DNA from: an uncultured Gammaproteobacteria bacterium
GTDB taxonomy: Bacteria > Patescibacteriota > Microgenomatia > UBA12405 > JAHJSD01
Direction: 5' to 3'
Assembly: GCA_964536585.1 (NCBI GenBank)
Contig: CAZHXO010000001.1
Coordinates: forward strand, 1-38,028
DNA: 38,028 nucleotides
Shown here: positions 5,286-38,028 of the stretch, piece by piece
How positions within the stretch are numbered: position 1 is the stretch's first letter
Layout: the number at the start of each line of letters is the position of its first letter
The notes under the pieces: model-generated
The model's input: the letters and a program-made list of their open reading frames with translations, nothing else
Told to the model about the DNA's origin: nothing
The model's database searches: none
Made by a program: the position numbers and the translations under genes

Positions 5286-6425
5286 ATGAACGACCAAAGA
5301 AAGCAAGCATTAAGCTTAGTTGCAATTTTGATGGCTGCTGCTGGCTTATTAGCAGGAGGAATTTTATTGCAACGCCGAACCGAGCTCAGGCGAAAAGCAG
5401 TTTATAGTAATATTGATGTGAGCTTACATCCACAACCGTTGGAGGTCTGTAAAGGCGACCAAGCTAAACTTTTGGTTAAGGTTGACCCCAGCCCTGAAAA
5501 CGCAGCTGAAACAGCTGAGATACATGCGGCTGAAATAAGGTTGAATTTTGATAATGAAATAGCAGCAGTTAGTAAGGTAACTTTTCATGACGATTACGGG
5601 GCGAGTATTTGGAACGAAGATAAAGCAAACAATTCGGGTGTGCTAAAAATGGCGGCGTTAACAATGGCACAAAGTGTTCCTACAGAAGTTTTTGATTTGG
5701 TTGAAGTTGAATTTAGCGGAGAAAAAGAAGGAGAGTTTGAGCTTCGCTTGGATAGTGATTATGAAATCCGCGGAGTTCGCGGCCAAACAGATGCTGATGT
5801 TGATCGGGAGCTGGAAATAAATAATGTTGATCAAATTGTTACTCAGGTTAAAGTGGTTGATTGTGATGGAGAGGGAGAGGCTGATTGGCCTAAGATGACT
5901 TTTAAAATTCGATTTGTAGGAACAGAGTATGAAGCTAGTGGTAAAGAGATTGTGGTGAGTAATATTCCTGACCAGAAAGTAGATATAGTAATTAAAGGTC
6001 AAGGACAACGCAAGGTTTTTGAGAATGTTAATGTTTCTTTTGATGAGCAGGCAATCGGAACTGGTAGTTTAGAGTTGGTTGGAGTCACCCCGGGAAGTGG
6101 ATATACGATTTTAATTAAGGGGCCGGTTCATTTAGCTCGCCGCTTTTGTGAGGATGAACAGGTTGACCGCTGTTGGTTAGGCCAAGGTAATTTAACAATT
6201 ACCAGTGGTGAAAATGTTTTTGATTGGACTGCGCTAGCTCTTGAACCCGGAGATATTAATAGAGACGGAATAGTCGATGCGACTGATTATACAAAATTAA
6301 AAGCAGCCTTGGGGCAATCAGGTGAGGCTGTCCAAGAAGATCTTAACAGGAACGGAACCGTTACTGGTCAGGATGTAGTCTTTTTCCTAGAAACGCTGAG
6401 TAAGCGATACGAAGAAGAAATTTAG
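5286..6425 (+). CDS. membrane-anchored protein with a cohesin-like domain, an Ig-like middle domain and a C-terminal type-I-like dockerin
   Basis: N-terminal TM. The stretch IDVSLHPQPLEVCKGDQAKLLVKVD...AAEIRLNFDNEIAAVSKV...FDLVEVEFSGEKEGEFEL fits the cohesin pattern. The C-terminus GDINRDGIVDATDYTKLKAAL...EDLNRNGTVTGQDVVFFLETL is a duplicated Ca-binding dockerin motif. Confidence 0.65.
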   Translation: MNDQRKQALSLVAILMAAAGLLAGGILLQRRTELRRKAVYSNIDVSLHPQPLEVCKGDQAKLLVKVDPSPENAAETAEIHAAEIRLNFDNEIAAVSKVTFHDDYGASIWNEDKANNSGVLKMAALTMAQSVPTEVFDLVEVEFSGEKEGEFELRLDSDYEIRGVRGQTDADVDRELEINNVDQIVTQVKVVDCDGEGEADWPKMTFKIRFVGTEYEASGKEIVVSNIPDQKVDIVIKGQGQRKVFENVNVSFDEQAIGTGSLELVGVTPGSGYTILIKGPVHLARRFCEDEQVDRCWLGQGNLTITSGENVFDWTALALEPGDINRDGIVDATDYTKLKAALGQSGEAVQEDLNRNGTVTGQDVVFFLETLSKRYEEEI

Positions 6426-6428
6426 TCC

Positions 6429-6456
6429 TTGCAAAAGAAAGCGGTTTGATTATATA
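6429..6456 (+). promoter_or_regulatory. candidate internal promoter
   Basis: TTGCAA at 6429-6434, 16-nt spacer, TATATA at 6451-6456. An AAGGAG RBS at 6471-6476 precedes the ATG at 6483. Confidence 0.35.
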
Positions 6457-6482
6457 GTTGAATAGTTAACAAGGAGTTTAAA

Positions 6483-7070
6483 ATGGATTTAAAAAAATTA
6501 GACACTGCAAAATGGCTGGTCCCAGTTTTAGCATTTTTAGTCATTATAGAAAGTGTTTTCATTGTTCAAAAATTATCTCAGCAACAAATCGGAGACTGGG
6601 AAGAAGAAAACAAAAGTTTACCAGCTAGTTTACAACCCGGAAAGAAGCAGCAAACAGTTCTTGCCTTAAAAGGAGAAGATAATATTGAGGTCGAAAGTCA
6701 GGGACAGGTAAGGGTAGTTATGACCCCCTTTGAACAATTATCCTTGGATGGAGTTGATATTTTAATTGAGTATAACCCTGATTATATTGATATTTTAGGG
6801 ACAGACCCGTCTGACCGCTTTTCCCGGGTGGGCCGGAATTGGATTGAACCCCAAAAAAATCGGGTTGTAGTTACTTTGGTACAGCTGGATCAAGCCGTTA
6901 ATTTTGAGGCTGGTCAAGAAGTAACTCTACTAACTTTAAGCTACAAAGCTCTAAAAAAAGGGGAAACAACCTTAAAATTAAAGCAAGCTGAGGCCGGCGG
7001 GACAAATTTGGCTGGTTTGGGAAAGGAATATCCATTTCAAACTGAAGATTTGAGTTTAACAGTAAAATGA
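6483..7070 (+). CDS. membrane-anchored cohesin-like domain protein
   Basis: N-terminal TM. The stretch VRVVMTPFEQLSLDGVDILIEYNPDYIDILG...EVTLLTLSYKALKKGETTLKL fits the cohesin beta-sandwich pattern. Confidence 0.55.
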   Translation: MDLKKLDTAKWLVPVLAFLVIIESVFIVQKLSQQQIGDWEEENKSLPASLQPGKKQQTVLALKGEDNIEVESQGQVRVVMTPFEQLSLDGVDILIEYNPDYIDILGTDPSDRFSRVGRNWIEPQKNRVVVTLVQLDQAVNFEAGQEVTLLTLSYKALKKGETTLKLKQAEAGGTNLAGLGKEYPFQTEDLSLTVK

Positions 7071-7747
7071 AGAAAATATTAATTTTTCTGGGTTTGGTTA
7101 GTAGCTTTTTTATAATTTCAGTTGCTACTGCTTATGCTGCGCCGCGATTGTATTTTGCCCCGGCGAGCGGTGATCAAGCGGTTGGTGAAACCTTTCAAGT
7201 AATAGTTAAGGTGGATACTGGAGAACAAGAAGTCGCAGCTGCTGACGCGATAATAAGTTTTGACTCGACTAAGCTAAAAGTGAATCAAGTTAGCAAAGGA
7301 GATTTTTTCCCGGAATTTAGTTATGATCTTGAAAATTCAGAAGGCGAACTTTCAATATGGGGAATGGTAGAAACAACTTTGGAATTAGTTTCGGGTGAAG
7401 GTGATTTAGCAACGATAACTTTTGAAGCGGAAAGCAATGGGGAAGCAGCAGTTTCTTTTTTATGTGAAGAGGGTAATGACACTGATTCTGCTATCTGGGA
7501 CAGTTCAGGCAATGATTTGATTGATTGTGCCTCCAACGGCAGTGGTTCATATACAATTGGGGGGACAGGGGCGACTTCTTCTCCTACTTCCACTTCCACT
7601 TCCACTCCCACTCCCACAAGTACTGCTTCAGCAGAGGCTACTGCTACACCTAGTGAATTGCCGGAAACAGGAATAGAAACCCCGTTGATTATTATGGGCT
7701 TAGGAGGAGTAATTGTGTTATTATTATCAACAGTGATGGCGATTTAA
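7067..7747 (+). CDS. secreted cohesin-like domain protein with Ser/Thr/Pro linker and LPXTG-type cell-wall sorting signal
   Basis: Signal peptide ending AYA-AP. Cohesin pattern GETFQVIVKVDTGEQEVAAADAIISFDSTKLKVNQVSKGDFF...GDLATITFEAESNGEAAVSF. C-terminal LPETG followed by a hydrophobic tail. ATGA start/stop overlap with the previous ORF. Confidence 0.7.
   Translation: MKKILIFLGLVSSFFIISVATAYAAPRLYFAPASGDQAVGETFQVIVKVDTGEQEVAAADAIISFDSTKLKVNQVSKGDFFPEFSYDLENSEGELSIWGMVETTLELVSGEGDLATITFEAESNGEAAVSFLCEEGNDTDSAIWDSSGNDLIDCASNGSGSYTIGGTGATSSPTSTSTSTPTPTSTASAEATATPSELPETGIETPLIIMGLGGVIVLLLSTVMAI
7586..7615 (+). repeat. hexanucleotide tandem repeat (acttcc x3, actccc x2) encoding a TS/TP linker
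   Basis: Read directly from the sequence. In frame within CDS 7067-7747. Confidence 0.85.
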
Positions 7748-17453: not shown

Positions 17454-18134
17454 ATGAAGATTAACCCTCATGTCGCCATTGTTGAGATACAGCCCGGGGC
17501 TGGTGGAACAGAAGCCAAAATTTGGACGAAGGATTTGTTTCGGATGTATTTAAGATATGCTGAGAATAAAGGCTGGAAGGCAGCTAAAATTGATGAATCT
17601 AAGCTTAAAATAGTTGGCAAAAGAGCCTTTAAGGGGTTAAAGGGCGAGACAGGAACTCACCGCGTCCAACGGGTGCCGAAAACTGAAAAACATGGGCGAA
17701 TCCACACCTCAACAGCAGTAGTCATTGTTATGCCAAAAGTTATTGTTAAACAAGGTGAAATAAAAGAAGAAGATTTGGAGTGGGAATTTTTCCGTTCCGG
17801 AGGAGCCGGTGGTCAAAATGTCAACAAAGTTTCTACTGCCGTTCGGTTAAGACATAAACCAACTGGGATTACGGTTGAATGTCAGCAAGAAAGAAGCCAG
17901 CAAAAAAATAGGATGATCGCTCTACAGCTGTTAGCAAGTAAAATGTGGGAGAGGAGACAAGCAAAGAAAAAGGGTTATATTGGTAATATTAGGCAGAAAG
18001 CCGGAAGTGGTAGAAGGTCAGATAAAATTAGGACTTACAACTTTCAACAAAATCGAGTAACTGACCACCGAACCAATAAAAAAACAAGGCAATTAGAAGA
18101 AGTTTTAGACGGCAATTTGGATTTAATTAAGTAA
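17454..18134 (+). CDS. prfA: class I peptide chain release factor, RF1-like, lacking N-terminal domain 1 (226 aa)
   Basis: Starts at [12 protein letters not shown] (start of domain 2). [18 protein letters not shown] carries a PxT-type tripeptide. [13 protein letters not shown] carries [13 protein letters not shown] is present. Only 2 nt separate it from the rpmE stop. Confidence 0.8.
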
Positions 18135-18137
18135 ACA

Positions 18138-18171
18138 CAAATTTAACTCAGCGATCGCCGAACTAAATTTT
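18138..18171. repeat. 34-bp CGATCG-centred imperfect palindrome, family A copy 1
   Basis: caaatttaactcag-CGATCG-ccgaactaaatttt, identical to 18874-18907. It overlaps the stop codon of CDS 18163-18840 and follows the prfA stop by 3 nt. A T-run follows on the + strand. Confidence 0.9.
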
Positions 18172-18840
18172 TAATTTTTTCTGGGCGAAAAGCTTGAAAA
18201 TTGTTTTTAATGGCCAGGTTGACGGGAGTAAATCTAAAGGAACTTTTGGATGTTGGGAAACTAAATCCCAGAATTGAAGTTGTAATTCTTCAGATAGTTT
18301 CCTTTCTTTTTTAAGTTTTTGCTTCCAGCTATTTGCTTTATTTTTCCATTGATGAACTTCCCATTTTTCCTCGATAATTTTCCGGGGATCACAACGTAAT
18401 ATTTTACCCTCAATAACACCTAGGTAATTAGTATCATCAATTTGTTTATCCAGTTGTCTAATTTTGTCAGTTAAGGGAAGAGGGGAGAACCAAACCGAGC
18501 GTTGAAAGAATTTAAAATCCCATTCTTTTAGTCGCCGTCGAATTAAATCCCGGGCAGTTTTATTTTTTTGCGGGATATCGAAAACCACGAATCGCCATTT
18601 TTTATCCCAAGGCTTTTTTATTAATTTCAAAATTGACTCAGGTTTTTGTTTAAAGGTTAAATCGGGATTCAAAACACCCTTTTTAATGAAATAGTTTTTT
18701 GTGCTTCTTACTCCTGCGCACAACCAATCGTCAAGGGTTGGTATTTTTCTTGTATCGGTATGAAAGTAATCGTAAAACAAAATCATTAAGTCTTCAGCAG
18801 TTCTAAGGGTTTGAAGTAATTTTGACTTTCTTTTTTGCAC
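18163..18840 (-). CDS. PaaX-like protein with Cas2-like central domain (paralog 1)
   Basis: KKWRFVVFDIPQKNKTARDLIRRRLKEWDFKFFQRSVWFSPLP is the PaaX-middle/Cas2-like motif. It is homologous along its length to CDS 29744-30409. The ORF is open to a TTG at 18876, but alignment with the paralog and the promoter layout favour the GTG at 18838-18840. Confidence 0.7.
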   Translation of the reverse strand: MQKRKSKLLQTLRTAEDLMILFYDYFHTDTRKIPTLDDWLCAGVRSTKNYFIKKGVLNPDLTFKQKPESILKLIKKPWDKKWRFVVFDIPQKNKTARDLIRRRLKEWDFKFFQRSVWFSPLPLTDKIRQLDKQIDDTNYLGVIEGKILRCDPRKIIEEKWEVHQWKNKANSWKQKLKKERKLSEELQLQFWDLVSQHPKVPLDLLPSTWPLKTIFKLFAQKKLKI

Positions 18841-18846
18841 ACTTAA

Positions 18847-18876
18847 TTTATACCCCTTTTTAAGAGTGAAAGTCAA
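18847..18876 (-). promoter_or_regulatory. promoter of PaaX-like paralog 1, abutting the upstream palindrome
   Basis: On the minus strand: TTGACT (18876-18871), 18-nt spacer, TATAAA (18852-18847), 6 nt, GTG. The -35 box overlaps the end of repeat A2 by 3 nt. Confidence 0.5.
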
Positions 18877-18907
18877 ATTTAACTCAGCGATCGCCGAACT
18901 AAATTTT
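18874..18907. repeat. 34-bp CGATCG-centred imperfect palindrome, family A copy 2
   Basis: Identical to 18138-18171. It lies between the hisS stop (18913) and the promoter of the PaaX-like gene. Confidence 0.9.
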
Positions 18908-18912
18908 AAAAA

Positions 18913-20175
18913 TTAGGTTAATTTTGTTATGGTCTCTTTTAAGGAGAGAGTGTTTTGTTTTCCACTGCGCATATTTTTGAGAGTAATGCTTTTATTCTTT
19001 ATTTCTTCCGGTCCGATAATTACAACGTAGGAAATACTTTTCTTATTAGCATAGTCTAGCTGGTCGCTTAAGTTGTCTTCAGGGTTGAGGTATAATTCTG
19101 TGTTGATTCCTGCTTGGCGCAGCTTCTGAGCAGTTTTAAGCGCCTCTGTCTGCATTTCTGGGGAAAAGATAGTCACTAAGACTTCAGTTGGGTTGGTTTT
19201 TAGTTTGGGCAATTTTTTCTTTTCTCTAAGGAGTTCGTAAAGAGGTATATCGCCGATGGCAAATCCAACCCCAGGGATTTTTTTCTTTCCGCCAACTTGT
19301 TGAGTCAAGTTGTCATAACGCCCGCCGCCGAAAAGCGCTCGATTTATTGAAGAGTTAATGCTCCAAGCTTCAAAAACGGTTTTGGTGTAATACTGGAATC
19401 CTCTAACCAGACTTTTATTAACAACAATATAGTCTTCAAGTGAATATTCTTTAATTTTTGCCATAATTTTATTTAACCAAGGGGAAAAGTTTTTGTTATC
19501 GTCTTCTAAAGCCAAAATTAGTTTGTTTACCTCATCTGTTTTAAGACCTTCGTCTTTTAACCAGGCTAGCCATTCTTTTTTCGGCATTTTATCCAGTTTG
19601 TCAATGTACTTAAAAAGTTTTCTTGCTTCTTCTCTAGAAATATTTAAGTTTTGTGAAATGATATTTTCTAATGCTTGGCGGTCATTAAGTTTGATTTGAA
19701 CCTCTTTTGGTGTTAGGCCAAGTTTTTTTAAAGATAAACAGGCAAGTGCAATAATTTCGCTCTCTGCTTCAACTTCTTCTGATCCGAGTAAATCAATATT
19801 CCATTGAAAAAAAGAGCGCCCTCGCCCTTTCTGGGGTTGCTCATAGCGAAAAAAACGTCCCCAAGATTGCCATCTAGCTGGAAGTTTTATCCTAAACTGT
19901 TTTTGAGCAATCATCCGGGCTAGAGTAGGGGTTAGTTCCGGTCGCAAGACGTAGTTTTTATCTTTATCTGTAAACCTAAAAGTTTGTTCTTCAACTATTT
20001 CCTGACTAGTTTTAGACAAATACAAATCAATTGGTTCCATTAAAGGGCCTTCATACTCTTGATAACCAAAAGACTTACCAAGTTCAATCCAGTTGTTCTT
20101 AAGCCAATTTTGGAATGCCCATTCTTCGGGGTAAAAATCCCTAAACCCCTTAATTGGCTTGAGCATATTAGTCAT
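18913..20175 (-). CDS. hisS: histidine--tRNA ligase
   Basis: PIKGFRDFYPEE, LRPELTPTLARM, RYEQPQKGRGRSFFQWNIDLLG and GGGRYDNL motifs, with a C-terminal anticodon-binding domain. Confidence 0.9.
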   Translation of the reverse strand: MTNMLKPIKGFRDFYPEEWAFQNWLKNNWIELGKSFGYQEYEGPLMEPIDLYLSKTSQEIVEEQTFRFTDKDKNYVLRPELTPTLARMIAQKQFRIKLPARWQSWGRFFRYEQPQKGRGRSFFQWNIDLLGSEEVEAESEIIALACLSLKKLGLTPKEVQIKLNDRQALENIISQNLNISREEARKLFKYIDKLDKMPKKEWLAWLKDEGLKTDEVNKLILALEDDNKNFSPWLNKIMAKIKEYSLEDYIVVNKSLVRGFQYYTKTVFEAWSINSSINRALFGGGRYDNLTQQVGGKKKIPGVGFAIGDIPLYELLREKKKLPKLKTNPTEVLVTIFSPEMQTEALKTAQKLRQAGINTELYLNPEDNLSDQLDYANKKSISYVVIIGPEEIKNKSITLKNMRSGKQNTLSLKETITKLT

Positions 20176-22098: not shown

Positions 22099-23421
22099 AT
22101 GGCCCAGACAAGTTCTAAACGAGATTTAAAAATCCCGCCCCACTCAAAAGAAGCCGAACTTTCAGTGCTCGGTTCGGTTTTAATTGACAAAGATGCAATT
22201 GTTGACATTGCTGATATTTTGTTCCCAGACTGTTTTTATGAAAGCGGGCATTCTGAGATTTTTGAAGCCGCCATAGAGCTGTTTGAAGAACGAGTGCCGA
22301 TAGATTTGGTAACTATGGCTGAACGGTTAAAACAGAAAAAGGTATTAGGAAAGATTGGCGGTCGAGCTTATTTGACTGAATTGGCTAATTCTGTTCCCAC
22401 TTCAGCTCATGCCCTTTCTTATGCCAAAATAGTTAAAGATTTATATACTAAACGCCAACTTATTTCTGCTTCTAACCAGATTAGCCAAGCTGCCTTTGAT
22501 GAGGGAAAAGAAGTGAGTGAAATTTTAAATTTGGCAGAAAGCAAAATTTTTCAGTTGAGTCAAGGACATCTGAGGAATAAACCAACTTCTTTAAGAGAGG
22601 CATTGGCAGAAAGCTTTGACCGTTTGGATGAGTTGCAAAAGAGCTCAGATGGCTTGCGTGGCGTTCCTAGTGGATTTAAAGATTTAGATGATTATTTAGC
22701 TGGTTTTCAAGAGAGTAATTTAATTATTTTAGCTGCTCGGCCCGGAGTTGGTAAAACGGCTTTAGCCTTAAATATTGCCCGAAATGTTGCAGTTGAAGAA
22801 AATATGCCGGTTTGCTTTTTCTCTTTAGAAATGAGTAAGGAAGAGTTGGTTGATCGTTTATTGGTTCGACAAGCAAACATTGATTCTTGGAAAATGAAGA
22901 CCGGCCGCTTAGAAGATAAAGATTTGTCTCAGTTGTCAGAAGCAATGGGAGTATTAGCCGAGGCACCGCTTTTTATTGATGACACTCCTGCAATGTCGAT
23001 GATGGAAATGAGAACTAAAGCGCGTCGCTTGCAAATAGAGCAGGGATTAAAGCTAGTTATTGTCGATTATTTGCAGTTAATGCGGCCGTCTCGTCGTTGG
23101 GATAGCCGAGTGCAGGAAGTGTCAGATATTTCTCAAGGACTTAAAAATTTATCCCGGGAACTGAAAGTGCCGCTTTTATCTCTTTCTCAGCTTTCTCGGG
23201 CAGTTGAAAAACGAGGCGGGTCGCGGCCGAAACTGGCTGACTTAAGAGAGAGTGGCAGTATTGAGCAAGATTCGGATGTAGTTGCTTTTTTATATCGTGA
23301 TGACGAAGAGAATAGGGAACTGGTTAATTGTGAGATCGCTAAACACCGTAATGGTCCGGTTGGCGGGTTTGAGCTTTATTTTAATCCTCAAAAGATTAGC
23401 TTTTTTGGAGTTTCAGAATAG
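22099..23421 (+). CDS. dnaB: replicative DNA helicase
   Basis: PHSKEAELSVLGSVL, GVPSGFKDLD, Walker A ARPGVGKTALALNIA, IVDYLQLM, SQLSRAVE, LRESGSIEQDSD. Confidence 0.92.
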   Translation: MAQTSSKRDLKIPPHSKEAELSVLGSVLIDKDAIVDIADILFPDCFYESGHSEIFEAAIELFEERVPIDLVTMAERLKQKKVLGKIGGRAYLTELANSVPTSAHALSYAKIVKDLYTKRQLISASNQISQAAFDEGKEVSEILNLAESKIFQLSQGHLRNKPTSLREALAESFDRLDELQKSSDGLRGVPSGFKDLDDYLAGFQESNLIILAARPGVGKTALALNIARNVAVEENMPVCFFSLEMSKEELVDRLLVRQANIDSWKMKTGRLEDKDLSQLSEAMGVLAEAPLFIDDTPAMSMMEMRTKARRLQIEQGLKLVIVDYLQLMRPSRRWDSRVQEVSDISQGLKNLSRELKVPLLSLSQLSRAVEKRGGSRPKLADLRESGSIEQDSDVVAFLYRDDEENRELVNCEIAKHRNGPVGGFELYFNPQKISFFGVSE

Positions 23422-27830: not shown

Positions 27831-27965
27831 GGAAGAGGGGAGAGGTAGTTATCCTATAACAGTAATCCCATAATATTTATAATTATTATCCTATAATATT
27901 AAATCCCAATTGTGAAAATTATAGGACTATTTTCATGTTTAGCAGCTAATTATTTAAAGTGCTAG

Positions 27966-27988
27966 AAGCACCTATCTAAGTGCTTTTT
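27966..27988 (+). terminator. candidate intrinsic terminator with a competing upstream hairpin
   Basis: aagcac-ctatctaa-gtgctt followed by TTT. GTGCT at 27959-27963 can pair with AGCAC at 27967-27971 instead. Confidence 0.35.
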
Positions 27989-28271
27989 GGGCATAGACAG
28001 GAAAAAGTAGCAGTTAATTTGTGGAAAACTATTATCGTTTGGGGAAGGGGTGTTTTAGATTCTTTTACCAAGATAGCACAGGAAGAAAGTAACTCTAAAC
28101 TTTTTTGAATATCCTGCAAATAAAATAAATAAACTTTAAAAAGCTTACTTCTTCAAAAACCATCTGTTTAATAAAAGGATATTTCATAGAGAGCAAAATT
28201 ATTATATGTCGTACAATGTTTCTTTTGCGACGCGCTAATTATTGTGAAGGCGAGGAGGGTGTAAAATTCAC

Positions 28272-28295
28272 AATTTTCAAATTTTCAAATTTTCC
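28272..28295. repeat. 8-bp tandem repeat aattttca x3 (last copy aattttcc)
   Basis: Read directly. Phased A/T tracts. Confidence 0.8.
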
Positions 28296-28684
28296 AAAAT
28301 AAAAAATTAAACTCCTATTTTATTTGAACATTGAACTTTTAAACATTGATGTTTTTAGTTACTTTTATCTTAATTAAGCTTTATACTTAAAGCTTTTATC
28401 AGTCCTCTATTTTAAAAAATTATCTTAGAGAAACATTAAATCTTATTTGTGGCCGTTAGCAAAAGGGTAATTGTATAGACATGCTTGCAAAAACCGCTTA
28501 GAATGGCTCTCATAACTTTACCCCTAATAACAGGCAGAAACTCAATTATAGTCTTTCAAAATGGTTAATTTTTATTATTTTTTAGAAATTTAATTCTCTG
28601 TTTATAAAAAATTCTAAAAAATTTTAATAAAATTTTACTTTCTCATTTATTTACTTTTTATTTTTTTAATAACGTCGCACAATC

Positions 28685-28713
28685 TTGACGTTTTCTAGAC
28701 AATCTGTTATTCT
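28685..28713 (+). promoter_or_regulatory. candidate promoter of the recombinase gene
   Basis: TTGACG at 28685-28690, 17-nt spacer, TATTCT at 28708-28713, 10 nt to the ATG at 28724 with no SD sequence. Confidence 0.4.
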
Positions 28714-28723
28714 TCAATTAACA

Positions 28724-29674
28724 ATGGCAAAGAAAAAAAATCTCTGGGCTTTAATTAATGAATATTTGGAAAGTTTAGAAATTGAGCGCAACCTCTCCCC
28801 GCTTACTATTCGCAACTATCGTCATTATTTAAAACGGTTTTACCAGTTTTTAAAAAATAAACAAACTAAAGAAGGGGTCTCCCCTACTCTATCTGAGGTT
28901 AACAAAGAAAATATCCGTAAATATAGGAGATATTTGGCAAGATTAAAGACTAGGAAAGACACTTTTCTCAAGAAAAAAACCCAGGGGTATCATATTATTG
29001 CTCTTCGGTCATTTCTACGTTGGTTAGTAAAGAATGATTACCAGGTTTTGGCTCCGGAGAAAATTGAATTACCAAAAACTGGCGACCGAGAAGTAAAGTT
29101 CTTAACAATGAAACAATTAAACAAATTTTTAAACCAACCAACAGCTTCTAATATTATTGGCTTACGAGATAAAGCAATGTTGGAAACTTTGTATTCTACC
29201 GGTTTACGAGTAAGTGAGTTGGTTTCTTTGGATCGGGATCAAATTAATCTTAAAACAAAAGAGGTTGGCGTAGTCGGGAAAGGAAGTAAAACCAGAGTGG
29301 TTTTTTTATCTGATCGAGCGGCAAAATGGTTGGATCGCTATCTGGCTGCTCGAGACGATCATTATAAACCCTTATTTATCCGCTATTCAGGAAAAAAGGA
29401 TCCAACTATGTCTGATGAAGACCTGCGCTTGTCAGCACGATCAGTTCAGAGAGCAGTAGAAAAGTATCGCAAAAAAGCTAAGATTCCGATTAAAGTTACC
29501 CCCCATGTTTTACGCCATACTTTTGCGACTGATCTTTTAAGGCAAGGAGCAGATTTGCGCTCTGTTCAAGAATTATTAGGTCATGAGAACATTTCCACTA
29601 CTCAGATTTACACCCACGTAACTGATAGGAGATTGCAAGAAACACATGAAAAATATCATTCCGGCAATAAATAG
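28724..29674 (+). CDS. tyrosine site-specific recombinase, XerC/XerD-like
   Basis: N-terminal SAM-like domain LSPLTIRNYRHYLKRFYQFL. Catalytic domain GLRVSELVSLD, VVGKGSKTRVVFL, HVLRHTFATDLL, LLGHENISTTQIYTHV (R-K-H-R-H-Y set). The ATG at 28724 is preferred over the TTG at 28685, which reads as the -35 box. Confidence 0.85.
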   Translation: MAKKKNLWALINEYLESLEIERNLSPLTIRNYRHYLKRFYQFLKNKQTKEGVSPTLSEVNKENIRKYRRYLARLKTRKDTFLKKKTQGYHIIALRSFLRWLVKNDYQVLAPEKIELPKTGDREVKFLTMKQLNKFLNQPTASNIIGLRDKAMLETLYSTGLRVSELVSLDRDQINLKTKEVGVVGKGSKTRVVFLSDRAAKWLDRYLAARDDHYKPLFIRYSGKKDPTMSDEDLRLSARSVQRAVEKYRKKAKIPIKVTPHVLRHTFATDLLRQGADLRSVQELLGHENISTTQIYTHVTDRRLQETHEKYHSGNK

Positions 29675-29717: not shown

Positions 29718-29751
29718 TCAACTATCCTTTACGATCGTAGGGTTTATTTGA
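29718..29751. repeat. 34-bp CGATCG-centred imperfect palindrome, family B copy 1
   Basis: tcaactatccttta-CGATCG-tagggtttatttga. 28/34 identical to 30444-30477. It overlaps the stop codon of CDS 29744-30409. Confidence 0.85.
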
Positions 29752-30409
29752 AGGGTGCATTTAATTTTGTAAATTGTTTAATTACCTTTTTTAGGGGCCA
29801 GTCTGGAGGTAAAAGTTCTAGTGGGATTTTAGGGTGGTTTAAAACTAAACCCCAAAATTTTTGGTTGTATTCATCCCTTTGTAGTTTGTTTTGGTTATTT
29901 AATAACGATTGAGCCTTTTCATTCCAGGATTCTATTTCCCATAAAGATTTAACGATTTTCTTTGATTCTTTAGGAGGTAGCTTACTGGTAAAAAGATAGA
30001 ATGCTTTATAGTCACTAACTTTTTGTTTTATTTGTTTGATCTTTTTATCAGTCGGTAAAGGGCTTATCCAAGCAGAACGTTGTAGGTTTTTGAATCCAAA
30101 TCGTTTTAAAGACTTTCTTAGTTTATCGCGTGTTAGGCGATTTTTTTCAGGAATGTCAAATAAAACTAGCCGCCATTTTTTATCCCATTTATTCAGGAGT
30201 TTAAATAAGTTAAATGATTTTTCCTTTAATTCAAGATTTTCTGTTATTAGTCCTTGCTCAATTGAATACCATTTGCTTTTTTGTAATTTTATTTTTGGGA
30301 AACCGATACTTTGAGTTATCCATAATGGATCTCGGAAGTAGCTGTCAAAGAGTATTAAAAAATCCTCGGCAACTCTTAATATTTCAACTAACCGATTTCT
30401 TCTAGGCAT
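29744..30409 (-). CDS. PaaX-like protein with Cas2-like central domain (paralog 2)
   Basis: KKWRLVLFDIPEKNRLTRDKLRKSLKRFGFKNLQRSAWISPLP. C-terminal FWGLVLNHPKIPLELLPPDWPLKK matches FWDLVSQHPKVPLDLLPSTWPLKT in paralog 1. Confidence 0.75.
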   Translation of the reverse strand: MPRRNRLVEILRVAEDFLILFDSYFRDPLWITQSIGFPKIKLQKSKWYSIEQGLITENLELKEKSFNLFKLLNKWDKKWRLVLFDIPEKNRLTRDKLRKSLKRFGFKNLQRSAWISPLPTDKKIKQIKQKVSDYKAFYLFTSKLPPKESKKIVKSLWEIESWNEKAQSLLNNQNKLQRDEYNQKFWGLVLNHPKIPLELLPPDWPLKKVIKQFTKLNAPFK

Positions 30410-30417
30410 CTATTATT

Positions 30418-30447
30418 AGATTAAAACATAAGTTTGGAAGAAGTCAA
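30418..30447 (-). promoter_or_regulatory. promoter of PaaX-like paralog 2, abutting the upstream palindrome
   Basis: On the minus strand: TTGACT (30447-30442), 18-nt spacer, TAATCT (30423-30418), 8 nt, ATG, with no SD. The -35 box overlaps the end of repeat B2 by 4 nt, the same layout as paralog 1. Confidence 0.45.
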
Positions 30448-30477
30448 CTATCCTCTGCGATCGTAGGAAATAGTTGA
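30444..30477. repeat. 34-bp CGATCG-centred imperfect palindrome, family B copy 2
   Basis: tcaactatcctctg-CGATCG-taggaaatagttga, with outer 8-bp arms tcaactat/atagttga perfectly complementary. It lies between the gyrA stop (30508) and the PaaX-like promoter. Confidence 0.85.
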
Positions 30478-30507: not shown

Positions 30508-33138
30508 TTAATCTGAAGCTTCTTTTAATACGGTCATTGCGGCCACTTTATCGCTTTTATTTTTAAAACGCATCAAGATGACCCCCTGAGTATTTCGGCC
30601 CAAAACAGGAATATTCTTTATTGGTAATTTGATAACTTGAGCTTTTTCAGAGGTTACAACGATTTTTTCTGTATCTTCATCAACTATTTGAGCGCAAGCT
30701 ACCTTGCCAGTCTTTTTATTAATATTAGCTACTTTTACCCCCACCCCACCCCGTTTTTGGAGCGGGTATTTATAAGCATCAGTCCGTTTACCTAGCCCGT
30801 TTTTGCTGATTACTAGTAAGTGTCTAAATAATTTTCTACGCTTGTCTTTTGGAACAGGCTTTTCTTTAGGAATAGTGTCCATAGATATTACTTGGTCACC
30901 CCTTTTAAGGTCGATACCCTTTACTCCCATTGCCGTCCTTCCCATTGGCCGGACATCCTGTTCTGAGAAGCGGATACTTTTGCCTTTGAAAGTGACCAGC
31001 ATGACATGTTTTTGTCCATCACTTAACTTGGCCTGGATTAACTCATCGTCATTTTTAAGATTAATCGCAATTATCCCGGATGATCTGATATTGGCAAAAT
31101 CTTTTAATCGGGTTTTTTTGATTTTCCCTTTTTGACTGGCCATCAAAATAAAGTGTTTTTCCGGGTCAATCTCTTTTGGTGAGTAATTAAGCACTGCCTC
31201 TACTTCTTCATCTTGGGCAATATCAATAAGGTTAATTATTGCTTGACCCTTAGATTTTCTTGAACCTTCCTCTATTTCCCAAGCTCGTTTTTGGTAAACT
31301 TTGCCCTTGTTAGTAAAGAAAAGTAAGTTATCGTGAGTAGTGCAACTGACTAATTTAAAAATTACGTCTTCTTCTTTGGTTGTCATCCCCATAACTCCCT
31401 TTCCCCCTCGGCGTTGACTACGATAGGTCCCTCTTGGAACCCGTTTGATATAACCGGTTTTGGTTAAGGAGACAATAACATCGTTTTTAGGAATTAAGTC
31501 CTGTTCGTCAAACTCGCCTAATTTTCTTTTGAACACTTTGGTCCGTCGTTTATCGCCATAGTCTCGTTTAATTTTTTTAATTTCCTCAGTTAAAACTTTA
31601 ACCATCTTTTTAGGTTTGGTTAATAATATTCTTAACTCATCCAATTTGGTCTTAATTTCTTTATATTCATCTTCAATCTTTTGCCTTTCTAGGGCGGCTA
31701 GGCGCTTGAGTTGCATATCCAAAATTGCCTGAGCTTGGATGTCAGTTAACTCGAATTTATCAATTAAATTTAATTTTGCTTTCTCGGCGCTTTTAGATTT
31801 CTTGATGGTTTCAATTACTTCGTCTAAGTTGTCAAGAGCGATTTTTAGTCCTTCTAAAACGTGCGCTCTGAATTTAGCTTCTCTAAACTCATAAATGGTC
31901 CGCCTTCTAACTACTTCATGCCGATGTCTTAAAAAGAGTAAAAGAATTTGTCTTAAAGTTAAAGTTTGAGGAATTCCATCTACTAAAGCGATTACGTTTG
32001 CCGCATAATTCTTTTGCAGATAGGTGTATTTATAAAGTTTATTGAGGACTGATTTGGGTCGTGCCGTTCTCTTTAATTCTATAACCACCCGAATTCCTCG
32101 TCGGTCAGATTCATCTCTTAAATCAGTTATTCCTTCGATTTTATCTTTCTTGACCAAGTTGGCGATTTTAGCAACGAGCTTGGCTTTATTTACTTGATAA
32201 GGTAGTTCACTAATAATAATGTTGTGTTTGCCGTGGTTGGTGGCTTCAATTTCAGCCACACCGCGCATTGGAACCTTGCCTTTACCAGTAGTGTAGACCT
32301 TTTCAATTACTTCCTGATTAAAAATCTGACCACCGGTTGGGAAATCCGGACCTTTAACAATTTCTATTAACTCATCAGTGCTGGTTTTGGTTTCAAACTC
32401 AAATTGGTAAGAAGCAAGCTGATCAACTTCACGCATAATAACTGCTTCGGCATTTTTTTTCTCATCAATACTTAATTTTTTAACCTTAAATTTCTTTTCA
32501 GGTTTTTCTGTTTGCTCCAGTCTTCCTTTGTCTAACATACTAATTAGAGCATTAGCTAGTTCGGTTAAGTTATGAGGTGGAATCTTAGTTGCCATGCCAA
32601 CCGCAATCCCATCAGCTCCGCTTAAAAGCAGATTGGGTATTCTTGCCGGCAGGACCATTGGTTCCTGAAGAGTACGATCAAAGTTATCAGTAAATTCAAC
32701 TGTTTCTTTTCTGATATCTTTTAGCATTTCTTTGGAGATTTTAGCCATTTTAGCTTCGGTGTAACGCATTGCTGCTGGTGGGTCGCCGTCGATTGAACCA
32801 AAGTTTCCTTGGCCGTTTACTAACGGGTAGCGTAAAGAAAACTTTTGAGCCATACGGACTAAGGCATCATAAACAGAAGTATCTCCATGGGGGTGGTATT
32901 TACCTAAAACTTCTCCGACAATTTTGGCGGATTTTGAATAGTTCGCTCCACTTTTTAAACCCATCTGATGCATAGCATAAAGGATTCTTCTTTGAACGGG
33001 TTTTAGGCCGTCTTTTACATCAGGTAAGGCCCGGGAGACGATAACACTCATTGCGTAGTCTAAATAGGCCTGCTGCATTTCTTGGGTAATATTTGCTGGT
33101 TTTACTTCTTCTGCTATTTGTTTTCCTTTTTTAGCCAT
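30508..33138 (-). CDS. gyrA: DNA gyrase subunit A
   Basis: [52 protein letters not shown] (active-site Tyr), C-terminal beta-pinwheel repeats. Confidence 0.95.
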
Positions 33139-37431: not shown

Positions 37432-37473
37432 AGTTTTAATTTTAGCACTTCCCCACCCTATTTCAAAAATACA

Positions 37474-37503
37474 CCACTTAAGCGACGATCGTCTTTTAAG
37501 TGG
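37474..37503 (-). terminator. CGATCG-centred palindrome (family C), likely terminator of the upstream GH130-like gene
   Basis: ccacttaagcga-CGATCG-tcttttaagtgg, with outer 8 bp perfectly complementary. On the minus strand it is followed by TGTATTTTT. Confidence 0.55.
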
Positions 37504-37518
37504 CTCGGAAAGGATATT

Positions 37519-38028
37519 TTATTCATTTTGGCTGGTTAAATCATACAGAAGTTTATTTAAATTAACTGCGGCGACACCGACTACCTTATCTCCTCCGCCG
37601 TAATAAACATAAATATCTCCATTCAAAATTACTGCTCCGCAGGGATAAACAACATTGTTAACTTCACCTTCCAGTTCATACTTTAATCTCGGCTCGAGTA
37701 GAGGTTCATTTGACCGGGCAATAACTTGTCTTGGGTCATTTTTTTTAAGAAGCATTGCCCCCACCCGATAATGTTTATCTGCTTCAGAAATTGCGTGATA
37801 TAAAAGTAGCCAGCCGACATCGGTTTTAAACGGGGGAGCGGCAATGCCAATTTTGCGACTGTCCCAACTATCTGTTCGGGGTTTAAACCAGGCACTACCT
37901 TTAACCCATTTTTTATCTTTAAAATCAAGATTATCAACAAAATCAATCCAAATACACGGGTAAATACGGTGAAAAATAGCATATTTACCGTCTTTCATAT
38001 TGGGGACAATACAGGAGTTTTTATCGTC
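37519..38028 (-). CDS. GH130-like (DUF377) glycoside phosphorylase/hydrolase, C-terminal part (5' end beyond window)
   Basis: The frame stays open past the Met at 37998 to the window edge (DDKNSCIVPNMKDGKYAIFHR). WDSRKIGIAAPP, GWLLLYH, YRVGAMLL and VVYPCGAVILNGDIYVYYGGGDKVVGVA fit the five-bladed GH130 pattern. Confidence 0.7.
   Translation of the reverse strand, partial: DDKNSCIVPNMKDGKYAIFHRIYPCIWIDFVDNLDFKDKKWVKGSAWFKPRTDSWDSRKIGIAAPPFKTDVGWLLLYHAISEADKHYRVGAMLLKKNDPRQVIARSNEPLLEPRLKYELEGEVNNVVYPCGAVILNGDIYVYYGGGDKVVGVAAVNLNKLLYDLTSQNE

What the first reader, a model, noticed from the sequence alone, without database searches (positions are those of the whole stretch)
18138..18907. 770-bp cassette: PaaX-like gene bracketed by identical 34-bp CGATCG-centred palindromes between convergent prfA and hisS
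Seen: caaatttaactcagCGATCGccgaactaaatttt occurs at 18138-18171 and again, identical, at 18874-18907. The copies are in direct orientation and 736 bp apart, and they enclose only the PaaX-like CDS. The downstream copy contains the gene's stop codon. The upstream copy abuts its TTGACT -35 box. Each copy is an imperfect palindrome. On the minus (gene-sense) strand the 12-bp arms pair completely if three G-U pairs are allowed. On the plus strand those positions are A-C mismatches. Removing one repeat plus the gene would leave a single hairpin between the convergent prfA and hisS ends. Inference: this is the pattern expected of an insertion that duplicated (or recombined at) a hairpin site. The strand asymmetry hints that the hairpin also acts as RNA or single-stranded DNA.
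Basis: partly seen in the sequence, partly recalled or inferred. Interest (0 to 1): 0.75.

Follow-up and report, generated by a model that had tools for sequence, protein, structure and literature searches.

The report
Repressor gene bracketed by own palindromes
A small PaaX/Cas2-like regulator gene in a Patescibacteria genome sits between two identical 34-bp palindromes that probably serve as its own binding sites, and the same gene-plus-two-palindromes unit recurs across the gene family and is present or absent between close relatives.

Summary
It is also not a one-off. The window holds a second, 40%-identical paralogue (29744-30409) bracketed in the same way. In 19 of 23 family members from 9 genomes, the gene lies between two near-identical 34-bp palindromes: a 14-nt arm, a 6-bp core (mostly CGATCG) and a 14-nt arm.

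The palindromes differ between paralogues but match within each cassette, so they travel with the gene. They are neither duplicated target hairpins nor general terminators. The upstream copy always supplies the TTGAC -35 box. The stop codon usually lies in or next to the downstream copy.

The protein is a miniature PaaX-family repressor with a strongly Cas2-like core. Genuine PaaX binds widely spaced inverted repeats and represses its own promoter. The best reading is therefore a self-contained, autoregulated repressor flanked by its own operators.

The whole palindrome-gene-palindrome unit is an accessory cassette. The closest relatives have an empty prfA-hisS junction. Other relatives carry a lone palindrome or a vapBC pair there. 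The xerC-gyrA slot holds different paralogues in opposite orientations.

The two copies evolve in concert. How the cassette moves is unknown.

The parts
18874..18907 (-). Cassette 1, upstream 34-bp palindrome. Gene-sense sequence AAAATTTAGTTCGG CGATCG CTGAGTTAAATTTG. Putative operator. It begins 5 nt after the hisS stop codon.
   Evidence: Exact repeat. Dyad and hairpin. Same position in 19 family members.
18871..18876 (-). -35 box TTGACT of the cassette-1 promoter. Its first 3 nt are the last 3 nt of the upstream palindrome.
   Evidence: Read from the sequence. TTGAC-like sequence sits at this place in nearly all family members.
18847..18852 (-). -10 box TATAAA, 18 nt after the -35 box and 6 nt before the GTG start. 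The mRNA is leaderless or nearly so.
   Evidence: sequence inspection; inferred, no transcript data.
18163..18840 (-). Mini-PaaX gene, 225 aa. Short N-terminal two-helix-plus-hairpin domain, Cas2-like central domain (FDIP...QRSVW) and PaaX_C-like helical C-terminus. The TAG stop lies inside the downstream palindrome.
   Evidence: Pfam PaaX_M 1.2e-17. PDB 3kfw 1.4e-7 and E. coli PaaX 8a39 6.8e-5. AF2 model pLDDT 84; Foldseek aligns 219 columns to 8a39. dN/dS 0.07-0.12 against orthologues.
18138..18171 (-). Cassette 1, downstream 34-bp palindrome, identical to the upstream copy. It contains the stop codon and ends 3 nt from the prfA-like stop.
   Evidence: The only terminator-like hit of the consensus scan in this region that coincides with a palindrome.
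30444..30477 (-). Cassette 2, upstream palindrome. Gene-sense sequence TCAACTATTTCCTA CGATCG CAGAGGATAGTTGA. Its TTGA end starts the -35 box TTGACT (30442-30447).
   Evidence: (D18).
29744..30409 (-). Cassette 2 gene, a 221-aa paralogue (40% identical to cassette 1). Its central domain passes NCBIfam's cas2 cutoff.
   Evidence: BLASTP 2e-46. TIGR01573 30.0 bits against a cutoff of 24.5, and TIGR02277 PaaX 2.3e-12.
29718..29751 (-). Cassette 2, downstream palindrome. It shares 28 of 34 positions with its upstream partner and contains the TAA stop.
37472..37505 (.). Lone CGATCG-centred palindrome caccacttaagcga CGATCG tcttttaagtggct with no PaaX-like gene. It lies between the stop of gene 37519-37998(-) and the promoter of the tyrS-like gene 36307-37431(-).
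   Evidence: DNA hairpin z-score -4.3. Its arms match no cassette seen. Candidate target site or scar (inferred).
17454..18134 (+). Flank of slot A: a 226-aa RF1-like release factor lacking the N-terminal domain, convergent with the cassette.
   Evidence: Pfam PCRF and RF-1. NCBIfam prfA match covers model positions 114-342 of 361.
18913..20175 (-). Flank of slot A: hisS, upstream of cassette 1 and co-directional with it.
   Evidence: Pfam tRNA-synt_His and HGTP_anticodon.
28685..29674 (+). Flank of slot B: Xer-type tyrosine recombinase, convergent with cassette 2. Probably a housekeeping gene; no link to the palindromes was shown.
   Evidence: NCBIfam XerD/XerC 2e-77; XerA_Arch 235 bits against a cutoff of 220. 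77-87% identical in relatives.
30508..33138 (-). Flank of slot B: gyrA-like gene (named from the translated sequence; no family search was run), upstream of cassette 2 and co-directional with it.
   Evidence: ORF translation. Synteny in L015, L022 and L027.

Best explanation
The 770-bp unit is a self-contained, autoregulated repressor cassette. The gene encodes a miniature PaaX-family protein. A Cas2-like central domain is expected to make the dimer, with a small DNA-binding domain on each side.

The 34-bp palindromes are the operators for this particular paralogue. The two outer arms (AAATTTA...TAAATTT, 18 bp apart) are the half-sites read by the two N-terminal domains. The CGATCG core sits under the dimer axis.

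Bound to the upstream copy, which contains the first bases of the -35 box, the protein blocks RNA polymerase at its own promoter. Bound to the downstream copy at the stop codon, it forms a second operator. That operator could close a ~740-bp repression loop, or block transcription running in from or out to the convergent essential neighbour.

The whole palindrome-gene-palindrome unit behaves as an accessory cassette. It is gained, lost and replaced in gaps between the 3' ends of housekeeping genes, the same kind of slot that vapBC toxin-antitoxin pairs occupy. The two copies are kept alike by gene conversion or recombination between them, together with selection to fit one fast-evolving protein.

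Shown: the architecture and its recurrence; the dyad covariation; the concerted evolution; the promoter overlap; PaaX-family membership; purifying selection; presence/absence and slot replacement.

Inferred: DNA binding by the protein; autorepression; the role of the downstream copy; the homogenising mechanism.
For: 1. Recurrence. 19 of 23 family members (window plus 8 MAGs and metagenome contigs) have a matching palindrome about 33 nt before the start codon and another in or next to the stop codon. The 4 exceptions each keep at least one copy. Two more distant relatives (47% and 34% identity) show it too.

2. Specific association. In about 125 kb of flanking sequence, palindromes with CGATCG, GGATCC or CATATG cores occur only next to these genes. 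The window holds no further site of either cassette's type.

3. The arms follow the protein, not the location. Group G1 keeps AAATTTA arms in two different slots. W2 and group G3 are only 36-42% identical but share both the QKSxWYxIE helix and TCAACTAT arms.

4. Dyad symmetry is maintained while the sequence changes. 87.8% of cells are paired against 55.5% in shuffles, with 170 double-sided changes and 0 of 500 shuffles as high. The inner arms alone give 81.5% against 45.3%. The symmetry is strand-neutral (20 G-T against 18 A-C), as expected for duplex DNA read by a symmetric dimer.

5. Promoter overlap. The 3' end of the upstream copy is TTGAC(A/T) in most members, with a -10 box about 17 nt later. 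Where the two copies differ, the upstream one departs from symmetry to keep TTGA (L015, L027, L008, L009, L025).

6. The downstream copy is not decaying. It forms 217 Watson-Crick arm pairs against 207 in the upstream copies.

7. The protein. PaaX_M 1.2e-17; profile hits to Rv0674 and E. coli PaaX; full-length fold match to PaaX. E. coli PaaX binds TGATTC(N27)GAATCA and represses its own promoter by blocking RNA polymerase (PMC9493321).

8. The gene is functional: dN/dS 0.07-0.16.

9. Cassette dynamics. See for slot A, and for slot B.
Against: No binding data exist. The N-terminal domain has no Pfam match and only moderate model confidence (pLDDT about 50-79).

A repressor with no detected target other than itself, in 2-4 or more orthogonal copies per reduced genome, lacks an obvious benefit.

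A dimer reading only the outer half-sites does not explain why the spacer positions next to the core stay complementary. Nor does it explain why they flip compensatorily in all copies between orthologues that are 84% identical.

Six of 19 cassettes have copies identical at 34 of 34 positions, although synonymous sites are saturated (dS 1.4-2.4). Selection for binding alone does not predict this. It needs an added homogenising process.

The family keeps the Cas2 aspartate motif (FDIPE) that E. coli PaaX and Rv0674 lack. The domain may therefore do more than dimerise.
Confidence: 0.55

Rival explanations
1. Self-mobilising cassette. The wHTH/Cas2-like protein is a site-specific nuclease or recombinase. 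Its DNA-binding domains dock on the outer arms, and the Cas2-like dimer cuts and rejoins at the restriction-site-like 6-bp core. Cutting at both copies releases the gene with one palindrome and leaves one palindrome behind. Re-insertion at a cognate lone palindrome regenerates both copies, in either orientation.
For: - The core is a conserved palindromic hexamer (CGATCG, GGATCC, CATATG, TATATA) at the dyad centre.
- The Cas2 catalytic-type Asp in FDIPE is at least 90% conserved across the broad family but absent from E. coli PaaX and Rv0674. W2 passes NCBIfam's cas2 cutoff.
- Lone palindromes sit in slots that hold cassettes elsewhere (L112; window 37472-37505). L029 and L111 carry a lone palindrome whose only lesion is a ~24-nt insert exactly inside the core, in opposite orientations.
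- Slot B holds two different paralogue types in opposite orientations.
- Occupancy of slot A is patchy among close relatives.
- The two copies and all four arms evolve in concert.
Against: - No known recombinase or transposase fold is present. PaaX relatives are repressors, and Cas2 alone is not an integrase.
- Paralogues within a genome are 36-68% identical, and orthologues stay in conserved slots with neighbours 73-91% identical. Movement is therefore rare, with no recent bursts.
- The nearest empty sites (L118, L113) carry no landing palindrome.
- No circular or junction forms were seen; reads could not be searched.
- The family was absent from plasmid and phage collections, apart from one 122-aa fragment on an IMG/VR contig.
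Confidence: 0.15
2. The palindromes act only as RNA or DNA hairpins (terminators or insulators) that shield the gene from read-through. The protein does not bind them. Their likeness is a by-product of duplication.
For: - Each copy lies at a 3' end. The upstream copy directly follows the upstream gene's stop in most loci, and the downstream copy holds the cassette's stop.
- There is a strong 14-15-bp stem.
- The downstream copy of cassette 1 meets a terminator consensus.
- The spacer positions keep complementarity.
Against: - There is no consistent U-tract after the stems.
- Only 1 of 4 copies in the window is called terminator-like.
- There is no sense-strand G-U bias in the inner arms (20 against 18).
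- Relatives lacking the cassette have convergent prfA and hisS 3 nt apart or overlapping, with no hairpin. These genomes therefore do not need one there.
- The hairpins occur only beside this gene family.
- The outer arms are conserved by protein subgroup, and the upstream copy is built into the -35 box. A mere terminator explains none of this.
Confidence: 0.1
3. One reading: the gene inserted at a pre-existing intergenic hairpin, which was duplicated as a long target-site duplication.
For: - The copies are identical and direct, and their edges are sharp.
- Removing the gene plus one copy would leave one hairpin.
- Lone palindromes exist in L112 and in the window at 37472-37505.
Against: - The arms correlate with the protein's lineage across different slots, not with the slot.
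- The upstream copy is part of the gene's promoter in every member.
- Empty alleles in the closest relatives have no hairpin. The L001/L113 indel includes both copies.
- Orthologous, syntenic cassettes with saturated dS still have near-identical copies. Identity therefore does not date an insertion.
Confidence: 0.05
4. Modules moved by a host recombinase (like pdif/Xer modules or integron cassettes). The palindromes would be recombination sites for the neighbouring Xer-type tyrosine recombinase or another host enzyme, and the PaaX-like gene would be cargo.
For: - The 14+6+14 layout resembles a tyrosine-recombinase core site with a 6-bp crossover region.
- A Xer-type gene adjoins slot B in four genomes.
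- The cassette in that slot has been replaced and inverted.
Against: - The arms differ completely between cassettes in one genome, so a single recombinase could not recognise them.
- The cargo is always the same gene family.
- The Xer protein is conserved like a housekeeping gene and falls far below the integron-integrase cutoff (116 against 265 bits).
- Most cassettes are nowhere near it.
- The cassettes carry their own promoter and are not in arrays.
Confidence: 0.05

Closest known systems
PaaX, the phenylacetyl-CoA-responsive repressor of E. coli and Pseudomonas (PDB 8a39, 3L09; Rv0674, 3kfw)
   Same: - The three-part fold: N-terminal DNA-binding domain, Cas2-like central domain, helical C-terminus with the DPxLPxxLLPxxW motif.
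- PaaX binds inverted half-sites far apart (TGATTC-N27-GAATCA) and represses its own promoter by occluding RNA polymerase (PMC9493321). This matches the conserved outer arms 18 bp apart and the overlap with the -35 box seen here.
   Different: - About 90 residues shorter (225 aa against 316 for E. coli PaaX), with a reduced N-terminal domain.
- Far below the PaaX equivalog cutoff (34-47 against 264 bits).
- No paa genes nearby.
- Keeps Cas2's FDIPE...QxSVW motif.
- Has a second operator-like copy at the stop codon.
- Occurs in several orthogonal paralogues per genome.
- Behaves as a gain/loss cassette.
Immunity regions of temperate phages (lambda CI with OR and OL; phage 186 CI with flanking FL/FR sites)
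   Same: Known from the literature: a repressor gene lies between operator sets on both sides and is autoregulated through a DNA loop between them. Related elements carry divergent, non-cross-reacting repressor/operator pairs.
   Different: - No phage genes are present.
- Each side has one palindrome rather than operator triplets.
- The protein fold is unrelated.
- Looping here is only inferred.
Type II toxin-antitoxin modules (for example vapBC)
   Same: Small, self-regulated accessory units controlled through palindromic operators at their own promoter. They sit in gaps between housekeeping genes. A vapBC pair occupies this same prfA-hisS slot in two relatives. The Cas2-like domain is related to the VapD toxin fold (Foldseek hits).
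   Different: A single gene. No toxin activity or partner has been shown. The flanking repeat pair is not a toxin-antitoxin feature.
Integron gene cassettes (attC) and Acinetobacter pdif modules
   Same: One gene bracketed by imperfect palindromes whose sequence varies while the symmetry is kept. The gene-sized unit can be gained, lost or swapped.
   Different: - The site is 34 bp, not 57-141 bp (attC) or 28 bp (pdif).
- No strand bias.
- Arms are specific to each cassette.
- The cargo is always the same gene family, with its own promoter.
- No arrays, and no integron integrase.
A CRISPR repeat-spacer-repeat unit with Cas2
   Same: Direct repeats of about 34 bp with internal dyad symmetry, kept identical within a locus, next to a protein with a Cas2 domain. 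W2 passes TIGR01573.
   Different: Only two repeats, about 700 bp apart, and the 'spacer' is the gene itself. The window has no cas1, no array and no leader. The repeats overlap a promoter and a stop codon.

Membership tests
PaaX-family transcriptional repressors | Central Cas2-like domain (Pfam PF20803, PaaX_M) | tested here: met
   64.2 bits against gathering score 24, E 1.2e-17. All 19 homologues carry PF20803.
PaaX-family transcriptional repressors | C-terminal helical PaaX_C domain with the DPxLPxxLLPxxW motif | tested here: met
   The profile aligns through HPKVPLDLLPxxWP to 3kfw and 8a39. Fold match to 8a39 over 219 columns. Pfam PaaX_C itself hits only the distant member P0019.
PaaX-family transcriptional repressors | N-terminal winged-helix DNA-binding domain (Pfam PF07848) | tested here: inconclusive
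   No Pfam hit. The AF2 model shows two helices plus a beta-hairpin at pLDDT about 50-79. The Foldseek match to PaaX spans 219 alignment columns.
PaaX-family transcriptional repressors | Orthology to PaaX proper (TIGR02277 equivalog; control of paa genes; phenylacetyl-CoA as inducer) | tested here: not met
   33.6 and 47.1 bits against a cutoff of 264.55. No paa genes in the window or in related loci. Ligand not testable.
PaaX-family transcriptional repressors | Binds an inverted repeat at its own promoter and represses it | not testable with these tools
   Consistent in silico: the palindrome overlaps the -35 box in nearly all members. Needs EMSA or a reporter assay.
CRISPR-Cas adaptation module (Cas2) | Cas2 sequence signature | tested here: inconclusive
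   W2 gives 30.0 bits against the TIGR01573 cutoff of 24.5 (met). W1 gives 19.8 bits against the Pfam gathering score of 23.8 (not met). PaaX_M scores far higher for W1, and TIGR02277 PaaX gives W2 the better E-value (2.3e-12 against 4.5e-07).
CRISPR-Cas adaptation module (Cas2) | Adjacent cas1 and a repeat array with 25-50-bp spacers | tested here: not met
   Two repeats 726-736 bp apart. Pfam scans of 36 of the 39 predicted ORFs of 90 aa or more found no cas1.
Integron gene cassette / attC | attC of 57-141 bp, folded strand-specifically, beside an integron integrase or in an array; cassette without its own promoter | tested here: not met
   The site is 34 bp with no strand bias. The neighbouring recombinase scores 116 against the 265 cutoff for integron integrase. 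The cassette has its own -35/-10 and there are no arrays.
Xer/dif (pdif-type) modules | Flanking sites share conserved arms that bind the host Xer recombinase | tested here: not met
   The arms differ between cassettes of the same genome (TCAACTAT, AAATTTA, GCGAGAATAG and others).
Insertion sequences / MITE-like transposons | Transposase gene; terminal inverted repeats with target-site duplication; several near-identical copies | tested here: not met
   No transposase family hit. Sequence just outside the repeats differs, with no duplication (D12). Paralogues are only 36-68% identical.
Intrinsic (Rho-independent) terminators | GC-rich stem followed by a U-tract at gene ends generally | tested here: not met
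   Only one of four copies in the window fits the consensus. The tails are heterogeneous. These palindromes are restricted to this gene family. Empty alleles have no hairpin.

The most novel reading that the evidence does not exclude
The cassettes would be a new, minimal (~0.75 kb) class of mobile element. In this reading the single wHTH/Cas2-like protein recognises its own flanking palindromes and cuts and rejoins DNA at the central restriction-site-like hexamer. It would excise with one palindrome and re-enter at cognate lone palindromes in either orientation. A Cas2-type domain acting on ~34-bp palindromic direct repeats without Cas1 would also bear on how Cas2 and CRISPR repeats came together.
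Probability: 0.13. Interest if true: 0.9.

Novelty: new variant of a known kind. Interest (0 to 1): 0.6.

Why it matters
1. It defines a recurrent architecture that the full-text searches run here did not find described: a regulator gene enclosed by two copies of its own palindrome. A reduced-genome bacterial lineage carries several mutually distinct versions of it.

2. The paired palindromes show strong compensatory and concerted evolution. Protein and site appear to diversify together. This makes a natural set of probably orthogonal repressor/operator pairs, useful for studying specificity evolution and as synthetic-biology parts.

3. The unit is gained, lost and replaced between housekeeping genes by an unknown route. 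If the protein itself does the chemistry, this is a new kind of mobile element built on a Cas2 fold.

4. There is a practical annotation point. One paralogue passes NCBI's cas2 model, and the 34-bp repeats look like CRISPR repeats. 'Orphan Cas2' calls in Patescibacteria may in fact be these regulators.

Tried and rejected
- Exact-protein look-up of hisS found nothing on record.
- A metagenome scan with prfA returned mostly distant relatives (40-53% identity). Only L029 was informative.
- A viral-contig scan gave one 122-aa Cas2-like fragment with no palindromes. The plasmid collection gave only a weak Streptomyces hit. PHROGs gave nothing, and PADLOC gave only weak Cas2 hits.
- Rfam found only a tRNA in the window, so no known RNA family covers the palindromes.
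- The ubiquitous-terminator idea was rejected.
- Strand-specific hairpin: the pooled G-T excess (42 against 19) comes from the outer arms, partly from the TTTG end that makes the -35 box. The inner arms give 20 against 18, so the idea was dropped.
- Similarity to HIP1 (the cyanobacterial GCGATCGC repeat) was considered and dropped. GCGATCGC occurs only in these two copies, and other cassettes have ACGATCGT, CCGATCGG or other cores.
- Protelomerase or hairpin-telomere origin was rejected because the palindromes are imperfect.
- The first AF2 model (16 sequences, pLDDT 63) was too poor in the N-terminus. It was repeated with 43 sequences (pLDDT 84).
- Two literature searches for Cas2+PaaX, and for palindrome-flanked regulators in Patescibacteria, found nothing.
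- L028, a GC-rich genome with 65-nt direct repeats around a Cas2-like fragment, is a different arrangement and was not pursued.
Full report
**1. The observation**

The 34-mer CAAATTTAACTCAGCGATCGCCGAACTAAATTTT occurs exactly twice, at 18138-18171 and 18874-18907. No other match exists at up to 3 mismatches, and none is expected by chance. Identity ends sharply at the edges of the 34-mer (D12).

Between the copies lies one minus-strand gene of 225 aa (18163-18840, GTG start). Its TAG stop is inside the downstream copy. Its -35 box TTGACT (18871-18876) begins with the last three bases of the upstream copy. TATAAA follows after 18 nt, and the start codon lies 6 nt beyond that.

Folded as gene-sense RNA, each copy gives a 14-pair stem with three G-U pairs, at about -11.8 kcal/mol. 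The other strand gives -4.8 kcal/mol. The prfA-like gene and hisS converge on the cassette, and hisS lies upstream of it on the same strand.

**2. It is not unique**

The window contains a second cassette. A 221-aa paralogue (29744-30409, 40% identical) lies between two CGATCG-centred 34-bp palindromes, at 29718-29751 and 30444-30477. These share 28 of 34 positions with each other. Apart from the core they are unrelated to the first pair. This cassette sits between a Xer-type recombinase gene and gyrA.

A third, lone CGATCG palindrome lies at 37472-37505, between two co-directional genes. Five of the seven CGATCG hexamers in the window are palindrome centres.

**3. The family**

Word-based and profile searches found a small, tight family. 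There are 19 hits, and 29 clusters at E<1e-30. It sits inside a large PaaX-like superfamily of 2681 clusters at E<1e-10.

A scan of one genome per species returned 21 loci in 8 Patescibacteria MAGs, with up to 4 paralogues per MAG. Some of these records are titled 'uncultured Gammaproteobacteria'.

Of 23 distinct cassettes, 19 have a 34-bp palindrome ending about 33 nt before the start codon and a near-identical one in or next to the stop codon. Each palindrome has a 14-nt arm, a 6-bp core and a 14-nt arm. The core is palindromic in nearly every case, mostly CGATCG, with CATATG and GGATCC variants and one non-palindromic CATATA. The four exceptions are:
- L010, where the contig ends at the gene.
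- L014, where the upstream copy is degenerate.
- L023 and L026, where both copies lie upstream, 66 nt apart.

Two more distant relatives (47% and 34% identity) show the same layout. In about 125 kb of flanks, palindromes with these cores occur only beside these genes. The window holds no further site of either type. This is therefore not a general terminator.

**4. The palindromes belong to the gene, not to the site**

The proteins fall into orthologue groups, each in a conserved slot. The arms follow the protein group. G1 members carry AAATTTA...TAAATTT arms both in the hisS/prfA slot and in a ManC/glycosyltransferase slot. Other groups carry TCAACTAT, CAAYATAACTG, TAAAGATAG and so on.

W2 and group G3 are only 36-42% identical overall. 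They share a basic helix, QKSxWYxIE, at about residues 42-60, and they share TCAACTAT arms. This is suggestive of direct readout, although shared ancestry could also explain it.

**5. Evolution of the sites**

Across 36 distinct copies the dyad is strongly maintained while the sequence changes. 87.8% of cells pair, against 55.5% in shuffles. All 15 pairs covary, with 170 double-sided changes, and 0 of 500 shuffles reach these values. Slid controls pair at 34-39%.

The six positions next to the core are the most variable and still pair at 81.5%, against 45.3% in shuffles. The symmetry is strand-neutral there, with 20 G-T against 18 A-C mismatches. The three sense-strand G-U pairs of cassette 1 are therefore not a family trait.

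The two copies of a cassette evolve in concert. Within a cassette, identity averages 29.5-32.5 of 34. Between orthologous cassettes in the same slot it is 11-29 of 34, in all seven groups. Six cassettes have copies identical at all 34 positions. Yet synonymous sites between orthologues are saturated (dS 1.4-2.4), and the genes are under purifying selection (dN/dS 0.07-0.16).

For example, the pair flanking the core is G-C in both copies of the window and of L009, and A-T in both copies of L001 and L008. L023 and L026 have proteins 84% identical, yet their inner arms changed from TTTAC/GTAAA to CCCTG/CGGGA in every copy. Some process copies sequence between arms and between copies. Gene conversion, quasi-palindrome template switching and repeated recombination are candidates. 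This step is inferred.

Where the copies differ, the upstream one departs from symmetry to keep TTGA for the -35 box. The downstream copy is at least as symmetric (217 against 207 Watson-Crick arm pairs). It is therefore under constraint and is not a decaying duplicate.

**6. The protein**

- Pfam PaaX_M scores 1.2e-17, while CRISPR_Cas2 falls just below threshold.
- A family profile hits Rv0674 (3kfw, 1.4e-7) and E. coli PaaX (8a39, 6.8e-5). The alignments run through the Cas2-like domain and the C-terminal HPKVPLDLLPxxWP motif.
- An AlphaFold model from 43 sequences has mean pLDDT 84. Foldseek aligns it to E. coli PaaX over 219 columns, followed by many Cas2 structures.
- The N-terminal 75 residues form two helices and a beta-hairpin at lower confidence.
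- The paralogue W2 passes NCBIfam's cas2 cutoff (30.0 against 24.5 bits). Both proteins fall far below the PaaX equivalog cutoff.
- The motif WDxxWRxVxFDIPE..R..R..L...GF..LQxSVWxSP is conserved across the broad family down to 19% identity. E. coli PaaX and Rv0674 lack the Asp.
- E. coli PaaX binds TGATTC(N27)GAATCA and represses its own promoter by blocking RNA polymerase (PMC9493321).

**7. Cassette dynamics**

*Slot A (prfA/hisS), with prfA identity to the window:*

| Locus | prfA identity | State of the slot |
|---|---|---|
| L118/L119 | 93% | Empty, spacer TAA-aat-TTA |
| L113 | 90% | Empty, the two genes overlap by 12 nt |
| L001 | 90% | Cassette |
| L008 | 87% | Cassette |
| L009 | 80% | Cassette |
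| L029 | 80% | Lone G1-type palindrome with a ~24-nt insert inside the core |
| L111 | 78% | vapBC pair plus the same interrupted palindrome, inverted |
| L110 | 79% | vapBC pair only |
| L112 | 78% | Lone degenerate TCAACTAT-type CGATCG palindrome |

Relative to L113, L001 has exactly palindrome-gene-palindrome inserted between the two stop codons. On a prfA tree, which is weakly supported, occupied and empty alleles are interleaved. hisS itself occurs as two alleles about 40% identical, and their distribution is incongruent with prfA. Homologous replacement clearly acts at this locus.

*Slot B (xerC/gyrA).* The window and L022 hold a G2 cassette co-directional with gyrA. L015 (a frameshifted pseudogene) and L027 hold a G1-type cassette co-directional with xerC. 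The unit is thus gained, lost and replaced. Orthologues usually stay put, however, and paralogues are old (36-68% identity), so movement is rare.

**8. Interpretation**

The best-supported reading is a self-contained autoregulated repressor whose operators bracket its gene. The outer arms are the half-sites for the two DNA-binding domains. The core lies on the dimer axis. The upstream site occludes the -35 box.

The downstream site is a second operator. It could close a loop, or block transcription passing between the cassette and a convergent essential gene. Relatives without the cassette have no hairpin at all between these genes, so insulation would have to be supplied by the cassette itself.

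Binding, repression, the role of the downstream copy and the homogenising mechanism are all inferences. I put this reading at 0.55.

The main rival (0.15) is that the protein itself cuts and rejoins at the core and so mobilises the cassette. It explains several things better:
- the conserved restriction-site-like core;
- the retained Cas2 aspartate;
- the lone palindromes;
- the core-interrupted relics in two orientations;
- the orientation flip in slot B;
- the concerted evolution.

It has no biochemical precedent, however, and the closest empty sites carry no landing palindrome. The remaining rivals each fail specific tests: pure RNA hairpin or terminator (0.10), target-hairpin duplication (0.05), and Xer- or integron-type modules (0.05).

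**9. Comparison with what is known, and novelty**

By sequence and fold the protein is a member of the PaaX superfamily. It is not an orthologue of PaaX, and there are no paa genes nearby. It is not a CRISPR component: Pfam scans of 36 of the window's 39 ORFs of 90 aa or more found no cas1, and there is no repeat array.

The palindrome-gene-palindrome architecture was not found in the searchable literature. That includes its several orthogonal versions per genome, its concerted and compensatory evolution, and its presence/absence dynamics. I rate it a new variant of a known kind (autoregulated repressor/operator units), with a modest chance of being a new type of mobile element.

Noticed in passing
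window 37472-37505: Lone CGATCG-centred palindrome (CCACTTAAGCGA CGATCG TCTTTTAAGTGG). It follows the stop of gene 37519-37998(-) and lies about 8 nt upstream of a TTGAAA -35 box for the tyrS-like gene. Its arms match no cassette seen. It could be a target of an unseen paralogue or an excision scar.
   Followed up: partly
window 17454-18134: The 'prfA' product is a 226-aa release-factor-like protein lacking the N-terminal domain. It aligns to positions 114-342 of the 361-position prfA model and scores below the equivalog cutoff. More than 2400 homologues were found; all 120 listed are of similar short length (226-296 aa), and the few that carry a source name are from Patescibacteria.
   Followed up: partly
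window 18913-20175; L001, L029, L112, L113 against L008, L009, L110, L111: hisS occurs as two allelic types only about 40% identical. Their distribution is incongruent with the adjacent prfA tree, which points to xenologous replacement by recombination at this locus.
   Followed up: partly
L110:3726-4362; L111:3515-4151: In two relatives the prfA-hisS slot holds a vapBC-like pair (86 aa plus a 127-aa PIN protein) instead of the PaaX-like cassette. The slot is therefore a general hot spot for small accessory modules.
   Followed up: partly
L029:3024-3079; L111:~4160-4320: A lone G1-type palindrome (arms like L009's) is interrupted inside its core by a conserved ~24-nt insert, CCCGTTTCGCCGAACCGAGGTGAA. 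The insert contains TCGCCGAAC, identical to half of the window's palindrome. The element lies in opposite orientations in the two genomes. In L111 it spans a run of N flanked by a duplicated TCTATGCGAT, probably a scaffolding join.
   Followed up: partly
L023:2860-2960; L026:1470-1570: In one orthologue group both palindrome copies lie upstream of the gene, 66 nt apart, one of them a half copy. There is none downstream. The inner arms differ compensatorily between the two genomes, although the proteins are 84% identical.
   Followed up: partly
L118:885-900 (empty slot A): The empty junction in the closest relative reads TAAAATTTA (stop, aat, stop). This contains the AAATTTA motif of the G1 outer arm. 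It could be chance in an AT-rich genome, or a hint of target preference.
   Followed up: no
window 3542-3841 and 4265-4564: Two 300-nt direct repeats, 99% identical and 723 nt apart, lie inside a 750-aa ORF (3006-5258) that has no Pfam match. Shorter Pro/Thr-rich repeats follow.
   Followed up: no
window 27831-28684: An AT-rich stretch of about 850 nt upstream of the Xer-type gene has no ORF of 60 aa or more and no Rfam match.
   Followed up: no
L001:1-794 against window 22099-23421: In L001, DnaB is an 874-aa protein with an intein (Intein_splicing plus LAGLIDADG). The window's DnaB (440 aa, 92% identical in the shared part) has none.
   Followed up: no
window 5286-7747: Adjacent genes encode dockerin-domain and cohesin-domain proteins, next to a GH39-like glycosidase. 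This is unusual equipment for a small Patescibacteria genome.
   Followed up: no
L028:2867-3329: In a GC-rich genome, a short Cas2-like fragment is flanked by 65-nt direct repeats (98% identical, 398 nt apart) of a different type.
   Followed up: no
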